Of a stretch of 64,000 nt of DNA, positions 38,338 through 38,532 are shown in pieces. This DNA is from Candidatus Heimdallarchaeota archaeon (lineage in GTDB: Archaea; Asgardarchaeota; Heimdallarchaeia; Hodarchaeales; Hodarchaeaceae). The notes beneath the pieces were generated by a model that had not been told where the DNA came from, searched no databases, and saw only the letters and a program-made list of their open reading frames with translations. The stretch's first letter is position 1; each line of letters opens with the position of its first letter. The stretch spans positions 328,769 through 392,768 of the forward strand of contig RDOB01000004.1 of NCBI GenBank assembly GCA_011364965.1. Reading direction: 5' to 3'. A program made the translations under genes and the position numbers.

Positions 38338-38532
38338 GGGCACGTAGCGAAGCTAGTGGCCTCGCTATAAAGCGAGACCGGACATGTATCGCGCCGGGCT
38401 CCAGAACTCCTGTGAACTTCACTGGGTTTACTGAGACTCATGATGACGTTCTGGAAAAATGAGGAAACTCGGTGTCACCTATGCATTCTGCAAGGTGTCC
38501 GAAAATCGTCGGTTCAAATCCGACCGTGCCCA
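38338..38532 (+). tRNA. tRNA-Trp(CCA) with three introns: D-loop ~38357-38385, 37/38 at 38405-38466, 45/46 at 38475-38504
   Basis: GGGCACG/CGTGCCC acceptor, GCGA/TCGC D-stem, CCGGG-CT-CCA-GA-CTCGG, GTCGG-TTCAAAT-CCGAC; removing 29+62+30 nt leaves a 74-nt cloverleaf; D-loop boundaries inferred. Confidence 0.88.
38405..38466 (+). ncRNA. Intron-encoded box C/D guide sRNA targeting C34 and C39 of tRNA-Trp
   Basis: CTGA (D'), ATGATGA (C'), ATGA (D); guides CACTGGGTTT and GTTCTGGA pair with pre-tRNA, and the N+5 rule gives C39 and C34. Confidence 0.8.

What the first reader, a model, noticed from the sequence alone, without database searches (positions are those of the whole stretch)
38338..38532. 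Triple-intron tRNA-Trp
Seen: a 195-nt gene with insertions in the D-loop (~29 nt), anticodon loop (62 nt) and variable loop (30 nt); removal gives a 74-nt tRNA. Introns 2 and 3 flank the same CTCGG strand, so their splice motifs compete and imply ordered splicing. The D-loop intron lacks a clean BHB, and its CGGACAT (38379-38385) is complementary to GTGTCCG (38495-38501) in intron 3, hinting at inter-intron pairing. Standard tools may miss this gene.
Basis: partly seen in the sequence, partly recalled or inferred. Interest (0 to 1): 0.75.

Follow-up and report, generated by a model that had tools for sequence, protein, structure and literature searches.

The report
Three-intron tRNA-Trp with methylation guide
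This is a real tryptophan tRNA gene of an Asgard archaeon, cut into four pieces by three introns; the middle intron carries a small guide RNA aimed at the tRNA's own anticodon arm, so it is a well-supported new example of two known phenomena, not a new kind of element.

Summary
Window 38338-38532 (+) is a tRNA-Trp(CCA) gene with three insertions: 29 nt between G18 and G19, 62 nt at 37/38, and 30 nt at 45/46. Removing them gives a 74-nt sequence that ARAGORN calls tRNA-Trp. ARAGORN and the Rfam tRNA model both miss the intact gene.

- **Conservation:** 19 of 21 same-genus genomes match the anticodon-arm/intron-2 model. In the 15 aligned full-length orthologues, exons are 93-97% identical with no gaps. 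Introns 1 and 3 are 65% and 74% identical and carry the indels outside intron 2. All cloverleaf stems show compensatory changes.
- **Intron-1 junction:** a relative lacking the D-loop intron has the D-loop AGCCAGGUA, which is exactly the predicted splice junction.
- **Intron 2:** it is a box C/D sRNA whose two 12-nt guides place C34 and C39 at the fifth-nucleotide position, as in the Haloferax and Pyrococcus tRNA-Trp intron.
- **Competing pairings:** the 8-nt middle exon (A38-G45) takes part in three mutually exclusive helices, all supported by covariation. These are the anticodon stem, the central helix of intron 3's splicing motif, and the guide-1 duplex.
- **Inter-intron pairing:** the proposed intron 1-intron 3 pairing shows no covariation support.

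I found no second tRNA-Trp, but the assembly is only 87% complete. Verdict: a new member of known kinds, of moderate interest.

The parts
38338..38356 (+). Exon 1: tRNA positions 1-18 (acceptor 5' strand, U8 A9, D-stem 5' strand GCGA, D-loop AGCUAG ending at G18)
   Evidence: 17 of 19 columns invariant and no gaps in 15 orthologues. Acceptor position 4 covaries with its partner: G-C, A-U and C-G.
38357..38385 (+). Intron 1 (29 nt, between G18 and G19). A long hairpin (h') spans 38358-79. The weak central-helix partner GGAC lies at 38380-83.
   Evidence: 65% mean identity with indels. 8 of 11 hairpin pairs show double-sided changes. The junction AGCYAG|GUA equals the uninterrupted D-loop AGCCAGGUA of the relative G022. 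Central helix A14-U17:GGAC is 2/4 here but 4/4 in L011 and L018.
38386..38404 (+). Exon 2: G19-G37 (GUA, D-stem 3' strand, G26, anticodon-stem 5' strand, C32 U33, anticodon CCA 38401-03, G37)
   Evidence: 16 of 19 columns invariant, no gaps. Position 29 (G to A) covaries with position 41.
38405..38466 (+). Intron 2 (62 nt, canonical 37/38; the A-rich ends mean 38/39 gives the same product) = box C/D sRNA
   Evidence: 93% identity, as conserved as the exons. With the other two introns removed, ARAGORN calls tRNA-Trp i(37,62).
38412..38418 (+). C-like box GUGAACU (degenerate; the UGA core is kept)
   Evidence: 6 of 7 columns invariant. Lies 12 nt upstream of CUGA.
38419..38430 (+). Guide 1 (12 nt). 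38420-29 pair with 38465-74 (the last two intron-2 nucleotides plus A38-G45). The fifth nucleotide upstream of D' (38426) faces C39 (38468).
   Evidence: 92% of cells paired. The guide G-to-A change matches C41-to-U in L018 and L019. The same arrangement is present in G022.
38431..38434 (+). D' box CUGA
   Evidence: Canonical sequence, conserved.
38440..38446 (+). C' box AUGAUGA
   Evidence: Invariant in all orthologues. Lies 5 nt after D', which is K-loop spacing.
38447..38458 (+). Guide 2 (12 nt). 38448-55 pair with U33-G37 plus the first three intron nucleotides (38400-07). The fifth nucleotide upstream of the D-like box (38454) faces C34 (38401).
   Evidence: 8 Watson-Crick pairs, 99-100% paired, invariant. 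Equivalent guides occur in G022, G039, G023 and G070.
38459..38462 (+). D-like box AUGA (NNGA across orthologues)
   Evidence: The GA is invariant. The first two letters vary: AUGA, ACGA, CAGA; GUGA in G022.
38467..38474 (+). Exon 3: 8-nt micro-exon A38-G45 (ACUCGGUG)
   Evidence: 6 of 8 columns invariant. It takes part in three exclusive helices: anticodon stem, H3 and the guide-1 duplex.
38475..38504 (+). Intron 3 (30 nt, 45/46). Hairpin h' pairs 38476-80 with 38493-97 (five pairs, CACCU with AGGUG); one extra unpaired U at 38498; central-helix partner CCGA 38499-502; bulges UG|U and AA|A.
   Evidence: 74% identity with indels. H3 is 4/4 here and 2 of its 4 pairs show double-sided changes. 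The hairpin covaries. The same position and geometry occur in G022, with CCGG:CCGG.
38505..38532 (+). Exon 4: A46-A73 (AUC, T arm, acceptor 3' strand, discriminator A). CCA is not encoded.
   Evidence: 23 of 28 columns invariant, no gaps. Two T-stem pairs covary.

Best explanation
This is the single-copy functional tRNA-Trp(CCA) gene of an Asgard (Promethearchaeota) archaeon. It is transcribed as a precursor of about 195 nt with four exons (19, 19, 8 and 28 nt). Three protein-spliced archaeal introns interrupt it at 18/19, 37/38 and 45/46.

**Intron 2 as a guide RNA.** Intron 2 is a dual-guide box C/D sRNA. With L7Ae, Nop5 and fibrillarin it should direct 2'-O-methylation of C34 (guide 2) and C39 (guide 1) of its own tRNA. 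Both guide duplexes include intron-2 nucleotides, so the unspliced precursor is the preferred substrate, in cis or in trans.

**Splicing.** A two-subunit EndA endonuclease cuts at relaxed bulge-helix-bulge (BHB) motifs and RtcB joins the exons.

**Competing pairings.** The 8-nt micro-exon (A38-G45) can pair in three mutually exclusive ways: with the 5' strand of the anticodon stem (needed for intron 2's motif and for the mature tRNA), with the 3' end of intron 3 (central helix of intron 3's motif), or with guide 1. One molecule therefore cannot present introns 2 and 3 for cutting at the same time. Folding suggests intron 3 is more easily removed while intron 2 is still present.

**Shown:** the gene, the intron boundaries, the helices and their covariation, the guide geometry, and the presence of the enzymes.
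**Inferred:** the methylation itself, the actual cleavage, and the order of events.
For: **Gene and boundaries**
- The spliced 74-mer is called tRNA-Trp in the window and in all 15 orthologues.
- Exons are 93-97% identical and gap-free. Introns 1 and 3 are 65% and 74% identical and carry indels.
- All cloverleaf helices are 100% paired. Across the whole tested structure (cloverleaf, intron hairpins, H1, guide 2), 14 of 52 pairs have double-sided changes, and 0 of 500 shuffles reach that.
- The intron-1 junction equals the native D-loop of G022. The intron-3 position and geometry recur in G022. G039 and G023 lack introns 1 and 3 at these positions.

**Competing helices**
- H3 is 92% paired, with U-A to C-G and C-G to U-A changes.
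- C41 to U in L018 and L019 is compensated in all three partners: position 29, guide 1 and the intron-3 end.

**Guide RNA**
- Box layout is C-like, 12 nt, CUGA, 5 nt, AUGAUGA, 12 nt, NNGA. The fifth-nucleotide rule lands on C34 and C39.
- These are the positions guided by the Haloferax and Pyrococcus tRNA-Trp intron (PMC4090602, PMC7994747, PMC7668247).

**Enzymes**
- The genome has two EndA paralogues. One carries Tyr, His and Lys at the positions I recall for the catalytic triad; the other lacks the His.
- Fibrillarin and RtcB are present.

**Copy number and order**
- No other tRNA-Trp was found.
- Ensemble folding of the full precursor gives anticodon stem 0.34 against H3 0.32. Without intron 2, H3 falls to 0.08. 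Without intron 3, the anticodon stem rises to 0.74.
Against: - There is no RNA evidence for splicing, circular introns or methylation.
- In this genome the BHB of intron 1 has only 2 of 4 central pairs, and its predicted pairing probability is 0.00.
- Intron 2's central helix has a C-A mismatch and almost no h' helix. An alternative register exists, so the exact cut site (37/38 or 38/39) is not fixed.
- The outer C and D boxes are degenerate (GUGAACU, AUGA).
- Covariation for H3 and guide 1 comes from only two diverged lineages in the genus (L018, L019) plus the outgroup G022, so there are few independent events.
- The splicing order rests on protein-free thermodynamics at 37 C.
- The assembly is 87% complete, so a second tRNA-Trp cannot be excluded.
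- L7Ae and Nop5 were not searched for.
Confidence: 0.85

Rival explanations
1. One reading: pairing between intron 1 (CGGACAU 38379-85) and intron 3 (GUGUCCG 38495-501) organises the precursor and substitutes for the missing BHB of the D-loop intron.
For: The 7-bp complementarity exists in the window. It is kept through G-U pairs in L006 and L016. Ensemble probability is 0.07-0.17.
Against: Only 73% of cells are paired, there are no double-sided changes, and 477 of 500 shuffles reach at least that paired fraction (421 of 500 the covariation score). Central positions are unpaired in 5-6 of 15 species. The two strands are also the 3' partners of H1 and H3, so this pairing would block both splicing motifs. 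Both strands lie next to 3' splice sites, so the pairing cannot itself form a BHB. About 0.6 such matches are expected by chance (my estimate).
Confidence: 0.06
2. Same gene, but different boundaries for intron 1 and/or intron 3. Examples: D-loop AGCUAGUGG+UA (27-nt intron), or variable loop UGUC with a 31-nt intron at 48/49.
For: UGG after AGCUAG and UGUC after CUCGG are well conserved in most orthologues. G023 has the variable loop UGUC.
Against: L018 has GCGC in place of GUGG, so the first alternative would leave it without G18 G19. G022's native D-loop AGCCAGGUA matches the 29-nt model. The alternative intron-3 boundaries give no central helix, whereas the 45/46 model gives 4 of 4 pairs with covariation and the right bulge spacing, and recurs in G022. 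The conservation of UGUC is explained by guide-1 pairing, the bulge and the h' helix.
Confidence: 0.06
3. One or more insertions are not removed (an expanded D-loop kept in the mature tRNA), or the locus is a decaying pseudogene.
For: Intron 1's splicing motif is weak here. The 2026 preprint calls such D-arm insertions 'intervening sequences' because excision is unproven (10.64898/2026.10.13.758758).
Against: An insertion of 29-32 nt between G18 and G19 would separate the two residues that dock on the T loop (established tRNA structure). Exons are under strong purifying selection with compensatory changes in every stem. No other tRNA-Trp was found. Orthologues L011 and L018 have a full 4-bp central helix at the same site.
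Confidence: 0.04

Closest known systems
Box C/D sRNA nested in the tRNA-Trp intron of Euryarchaeota (Haloferax volcanii pre-tRNA-Trp; Pyrococcus sR50)
   Same: Same host gene and same canonical intron position. Intron length is about 62-65 nt. It has two guides that target position 34 and position 39 of the same tRNA. The guide duplexes include intron nucleotides, so the precursor is the substrate (PMC4090602, PMC7994747; predicted C34 and C39 in P. furiosus, PMC7668247).
   Different: Here the host is an Asgard archaeon. The outer C and D boxes are degenerate while the inner C' and D' boxes are canonical. The position-39 target lies on an 8-nt micro-exon bounded by a second intron, so guide 1 also competes with another intron's splicing motif. 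In sister families the same sRNA is free-standing.
Multi-intron tRNA genes of Thermoproteales (Pyrobaculum, Thermofilum, Caldivirga)
   Same: Up to three BHB-type introns per gene at non-canonical positions. Relaxed hBH and HBh' motifs. A two-subunit EndA of broad specificity (PMC4090602).
   Different: A different phylum. No intron copies were found elsewhere in this genome, unlike the intron transposition reported in Thermoproteales.
[quoted passage not shown]
   Same: Several intervening sequences per gene. D-arm insertions are missed by annotators. Gains are lineage-specific. Two EndA paralogues are present (PMC11291895; bioRxiv 10.64898/2026.10.13.758758).
   Different: Those papers centre on other classes and report that several Heimdallarchaeia lineages have under one insertion per gene. 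In the text I searched, the preprint has no occurrence of 'Trp' or 'box C'; the other paper was not searched for this.
Split and permuted tRNA genes (Nanoarchaeum equitans, Caldivirga tri-split tRNAs)
   Same: Short tRNA pieces joined through BHB motifs by the same enzymes.
   Different: This gene is contiguous and colinear. The extra 5' and 3' fragments in the relative G001 show no significant complementary leader pairing.

Membership tests
Archaeal protein-spliced (BHB) tRNA introns | Removing the insertions restores a canonical cloverleaf tRNA | tested here: met
   The 74-nt product is called tRNA-Trp(cca) in the window and in all 15 orthologues. Junctions match uninterrupted relatives.
Archaeal protein-spliced (BHB) tRNA introns | A bulge-helix-bulge or relaxed HBh'/hBH motif places both splice sites two nucleotides past a 4-bp central helix | tested here: inconclusive
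   Intron 3: central helix 4/4, two 3-nt bulges, h' present, h absent; covariation supports it. Intron 2: the anticodon stem serves as h, 3-nt bulges are present, the central helix is 3/4 with a C-A mismatch, and h' is weak. Intron 1: central helix 2/4 here but 4/4 in L011 and L018, h' is strong, and the 3' site sits in a 5-nt loop.
Archaeal protein-spliced (BHB) tRNA introns | Splicing endonuclease and RNA ligase encoded in the genome | tested here: met
   Two EndA paralogues above the Pfam cut-off. One carries Tyr, His and Lys at the positions I recall for the catalytic triad; the other lacks the His. RtcB is present.
Archaeal protein-spliced (BHB) tRNA introns | Spliced RNA and excised (circular) introns observed | not testable with these tools
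   No transcriptome is available. A metagenome scan for the spliced junction found only chance matches in unrelated DNA.
tRNA-Trp intron box C/D guide RNA | Located in the 37/38 intron of tRNA-Trp | tested here: met
   Intron 38405-66. ARAGORN calls i(37,62) once introns 1 and 3 are removed.
tRNA-Trp intron box C/D guide RNA | C, D', C' and D boxes with 12-nt guide spacers | tested here: met
   GUGAACU, 12 nt, CUGA, 5 nt, AUGAUGA, 12 nt, AUGA. Inner boxes are canonical and invariant. The outer boxes keep only the UGA and GA cores.
tRNA-Trp intron box C/D guide RNA | Guides are complementary to the host tRNA, with the fifth nucleotide upstream of D or D' facing positions 34 and 39 | tested here: met
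   Guide 2 has 8 Watson-Crick pairs and 38454 faces C34. Guide 1 has 10 pairs (2 G-U) and 38426 faces C39. A guide-target compensatory change occurs at position 41.
tRNA-Trp intron box C/D guide RNA | C/D RNP proteins present and methylation observed | tested here: inconclusive
   Fibrillarin is present. L7Ae and Nop5 were not searched. Cm34 and Cm39 cannot be tested here.
Split or permuted tRNA gene | tRNA pieces encoded at separate loci or in permuted order | tested here: not met
   All four exons are colinear within 195 nt.

The most novel reading that the evidence does not exclude
The precursor is a programmed conformational switch. The 8-nt micro-exon must pass in turn through the guide-1 duplex (Cm39), the intron-3 central helix (excision of intron 3) and finally the anticodon stem (excision of intron 2, which releases the C/D sRNA). 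Methylation and the two splicing steps would then be forced into a fixed order, acting as a built-in quality control that couples modification to splicing in a close archaeal relative of eukaryotes.
Probability: 0.22. Interest if true: 0.6.

Novelty: new member of a known kind. Interest (0 to 1): 0.4.

Why it matters
- **Annotation.** This is the only tRNA-Trp found in the assembly, and standard finders miss it. Annotation pipelines would report the genome as lacking tRNA-Trp.
- **Reach of the self-targeting guide.** The tRNA-Trp intron guide RNA, first described in Euryarchaeota and treated as a general archaeal feature in the 2014 review, is documented here in Asgard archaea. Within one class it alternates between intronic and free-standing positions.
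- **Intron gain.** The genus gives a graded series of two, three and four introns in one gene. It dates gains of a D-loop intron and a T-loop intron, which helps the open question of how such introns arrive.
- **A test system.** The 8-nt exon has three covarying, mutually exclusive partners. This makes a compact system for asking whether splicing order and modification are coupled.

Tried and rejected
- **Rfam around the locus:** at permissive E-values only non-significant snoRNA-like hits appeared (SNORD100 at 14.7 bits, sR3, sR28). No Rfam family reached even a marginal score for this intron.
- **Genome-collection scan:** It did recover a same-genus record titled Promethearchaeota (L074) and the G022 free-standing copy.
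- **Metagenome scan:** the spliced exon 2-3-4 junction gave four chance hits in unrelated high-GC DNA. No spliced or intron-less copy was found.
- **Intron paralogues:** BLAST of the three introns against the genome gave only chance short matches. The two best were in coding sequence with no C box nearby. There is thus no sign of intron transposition.
- **Split tRNA in G001:** flank complementarity was -26.5 kcal/mol against -22.2 +/- 3.7 for shuffles, which is not significant.
- **Second CTCCAR-containing tRNA candidate:** the candidate on contig C6 turned out to be tRNA-Tyr(GUA).
- **Strict BHB for intron 1:** I tried the conserved G15-C16-U17:A-G-U helix from RNAalifold. It puts the 3' site inside a helix, so I rejected it as the cleavage conformation.
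- **Papers not held:** PMC92551 and PMC275556 (the primary tRNA-Trp intron papers) are not in the library. I relied on reviews instead.
- **Not available:** tRNAscan-SE, SPLITS and R2DT.

Full report
**1. Observation**

The stretch 38338-38532 (+) is a GC-rich island (about 48% GC in a roughly 33% GC region) that contains every element of a tRNA-Trp:
- Acceptor stem: GGGCACG with CGTGCCC.
- D stem: GCGA with TCGC.
- Anticodon stem: CCGGG with CTCGG, around the loop CUCCAGA.
- A perfect T arm, then discriminator A.

Three insertions of 29, 62 and 30 nt interrupt the D-loop, the anticodon loop and the variable loop.

Standard tools miss the gene:
- ARAGORN finds nothing, with or without its intron option.
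- The Rfam tRNA model sees only the T arm, at 13.7 bits.

Joining the four exons by coordinate gives a 74-mer that ARAGORN calls tRNA-Trp(cca). ARAGORN succeeds when only intron 2 or only intron 3 is left in. It fails whenever the D-loop intron is kept. That intron is what hides the gene.

**2. Is it real?**

A BLAST search of relatives found the same architecture in the genus, and a covariance model matches 19 of 21 same-genus genomes. One of these genomes has a public record titled Promethearchaeota, the Asgard phylum.

| Segment (15 aligned orthologues) | Mean identity | Gaps |
|---|---|---|
| Exons | 93-97% | none |
| Intron 1 | 65% | yes |
| Intron 3 | 74% | yes |
| Intron 2 | 93% | yes |

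Every cloverleaf helix is 100% paired, and the acceptor, anticodon and T stems show compensatory changes. Across the whole tested structure (cloverleaf, intron hairpins, H1, guide 2), 14 of 52 pairs show double-sided changes, and 0 of 500 shuffles reach that number. Sliding the partner columns by one drops pairing from 94% to about 43%.

The mature length is 74 nt in all orthologues, while intron lengths vary (29-32, 62-65 and 30-32 nt).

I found no other tRNA-Trp by three routes: the Rfam tRNA model, which gave 23 hits genome-wide; ARAGORN with introns; and my own scan based on T arm plus acceptor. The assembly is 87% complete, so absence is not proven.

**3. Intron boundaries**

*Intron 1.*
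- Conservation stops after AGCUAG and resumes at GUA.
- L018 has GCGC where others have GUGG. The GG after AGCUAG therefore cannot be G18 G19.
- The decisive check is an outgroup. The tRNA-Trp of G022 (same order, other family) has no D-loop insertion, and its D-loop reads AGCCAGGUA. That is exactly exon 1 plus exon 2 here (AGCUAG+GUA).

*Intron 3.*
- BHB geometry was derived from the canonical 37/38 case: outer helix, 4-bp central helix, 3-nt bulge cut after its second nucleotide.
- It fits only one register. U40-G43 (38469-72) pair with CCGA (38499-502), with bulges UG|U and AA|A.
- This gives the variable loop UGAUC.
- The helix is 92% paired. It changes U-A to C-G in L018 and C-G to U-A in L018 and L019.
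- G022 has an intron at the same position with CCGG:CCGG.

*Intron 2.*
- It sits at the canonical 37/38 position. Its A-rich ends make 38/39 give the same product.
- Its central helix is imperfect (C-G, U-G, C-A mismatch, C-G) and overlaps the GA of the D-like box.

*Intron 1's central helix.*
- A14-U17 pair with GGAC in only 2 of 4 positions here, but in 4 of 4 in L011 and L018.

**4. Intron 2 is a box C/D guide RNA**

| Element | Sequence | Window coordinates |
|---|---|---|
| C-like box | GUGAACU | 38412-18 |
| Guide 1 | 12 nt | 38419-30 |
| D' box | CUGA | 38431-34 |
| Spacer | 5 nt | 38435-39 |
| C' box | AUGAUGA | 38440-46 |
| Guide 2 | 12 nt | 38447-58 |
| D-like box | AUGA | 38459-62 |

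- Guide 2 forms 8 Watson-Crick pairs with U33-G37 plus the first three intron nucleotides. Its fifth nucleotide upstream of the box faces C34.
- Guide 1 forms 10 pairs with the last two intron nucleotides plus A38-G45. Its fifth nucleotide faces C39.
- Positions 34 and 39 are the ones guided by the tRNA-Trp intron of Haloferax volcanii and Pyrococcus (PMC4090602; PMC7994747; C34 and C39 predicted in P. furiosus, PMC7668247).
- This function explains why intron 2 is as conserved as the exons.
- Two first-reader notes of this scan reached the same reading. I derived it independently before seeing them.

A covariance model of this region finds the following across the class:
- Intronic equivalents in G022 and G039.
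- A free-standing C/D sRNA carrying the same C34 guide about 130 nt downstream of the tRNA-Trp gene in G023.
- A free-standing sRNA with canonical boxes in G070.

The sRNA is therefore old in this class and moves between intronic and independent locations.

**5. Competing helices and order**

The micro-exon A38-G45 is the common strand of three helices: the anticodon stem, H3 and the guide-1 duplex.

The change C41 to U in L018 and L019 is matched by G to A in all three partners (position 29, guide 1 and the intron-3 end). U40 to C in L018 is matched in H3. All three pairings are therefore under selection, and they exclude one another.

| Precursor state (ensemble folding) | Anticodon stem | H3 |
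|---|---|---|
| Full precursor | 0.34 | 0.32 |
| Intron 2 removed | 0.91 | 0.08 |
| Intron 3 removed | 0.74 | not applicable |

The full precursor also shows guide 2 pairing with the anticodon at 0.70. This favours removal of intron 3 before intron 2. It is a protein-free model, and I rate the order as no better than even odds.

The GG at 38463-64 can pair with exon C32 U33 (splicing form) or with the intron's own CC (terminal stem of the C/D motif). The RNP form and the splicing form of intron 2 are therefore probably also alternatives. This is inference.

**6. The inter-intron pairing**

CGGACAU:GUGUCCG is present in the window, but across orthologues it fares poorly:
- It is 73% paired.
- It has no double-sided change.
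- It is no better than shuffled partners: 477 of 500 shuffles reach its paired fraction, and 421 of 500 its covariation score.
- Central positions are broken in L009, L012, L013, L018 and L019.

Its two strands are the 3' partners of H1 and H3, so at most it would be an inhibitory alternative fold. I treat it as chance.

**7. Machinery**

The genome encodes:
- Two EndA-family proteins. One carries Tyr, His and Lys at the positions I recall for the catalytic triad; the other lacks the His. This fits the two-subunit enzyme of broad specificity that is also common in other Asgard genomes (the preprint 10.64898/2026.10.13.758758, section 2.6).
- Fibrillarin.
- RtcB.

**8. Evolution**

| Genome | Placement | tRNA-Trp introns |
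|---|---|---|
| G023 | same order | 37/38 only |
| G039 | another family | 37/38 plus a different D-arm insertion |
| G022 | same order, other family | 37/38 and 45/46 |
| This genus | - | adds 18/19 |
| G005 and G006 | same genus | add a fourth intron in the T loop, after A59 |

. None of the introns has a copy elsewhere in this genome.

**9. Comparison and verdict**

- Multi-intron tRNA genes are established in Thermoproteales and, recently, in Asgard archaea, with up to five per gene and D-arm insertions missed by annotators (PMC11291895; 10.64898/2026.10.13.758758).
- The self-targeting tRNA-Trp intron guide has been known since 2000-2001.
- This locus combines both, in a lineage where neither seems to have been described for tRNA-Trp. 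The preprint text has no occurrence of 'Trp' or 'box C'.
- It adds a neat three-way competition on an 8-nt exon.

It is a solid new member of known kinds, of moderate interest. It is useful mainly for annotation and as a test system for ordered processing.

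Noticed in passing
L006 (G006, reverse strand, locus 1501-1733 in gene orientation) and L008:1501-1732 (G005): Two same-genus species carry a fourth intron of about 31-33 nt in the T loop of the same tRNA-Trp gene, after TTCAAA (59/60). The remaining T-stem and acceptor strand lie downstream. This looks like a recent lineage-specific gain.
   Followed up: partly
L018 (G001, gene orientation 1323-1400) and L154 (G001:C16:10400-11000, reverse strand about 245-370): G001 has, besides the intact gene, two fragments. One is a 5' fragment (exon 1, intron 1, exon 2) with the anticodon CCA deleted, 178 nt upstream. The other is a 3' fragment (C/D sRNA, exon 3, intron 3, exon 4) 22 kb away. 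Their flanks are not significantly complementary, so this is not a split tRNA.
   Followed up: partly
L021:1265-1320 (G023); L178 (G070:C101:32243-32297); L023 and L106 (G022): Free-standing box C/D sRNAs carry the same tRNA-Trp C34 guide. In G023 the sRNA lies about 130 nt downstream of a tRNA-Trp gene whose own intron lacks it. In G070 it has canonical boxes and both guides.
   Followed up: partly
G000 contig C6, reverse strand 11097-11258 (outside the window): A 162-nt tRNA-Tyr(GUA) gene has several insertions. One contains GUGAUGA, then 12 nt, then UAAUGAG, which resembles a half box C/D unit. Its target was not identified.
   Followed up: no
window 53128-53230 (+): An intron-containing tRNA, called tRNA-Ile(gat) with a 24-nt intron by ARAGORN in intron mode. 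The Rfam tRNA model finds it but default ARAGORN does not. Rfam finds only 23 tRNAs in the whole assembly, so many tRNA genes here are probably hidden by introns.
   Followed up: partly
window 41363-41501 (+): A GC-rich stretch that starts GCCGGGG and ends CCCCGGC, with a T arm. An earlier first-reader note calls it a double-intron tRNA-Ser(TGA). ARAGORN and Rfam did not report it. I only printed the sequence.
   Followed up: no
L150:1312-1782 and L151:1216-1860 (G000 contig C13): Two EndA paralogues. The shorter has Tyr, His and Lys at the positions I recall for the catalytic triad. The longer lacks the His and has an acidic N-terminal extension and tail. This fits a catalytic plus structural subunit pair.
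   Followed up: partly
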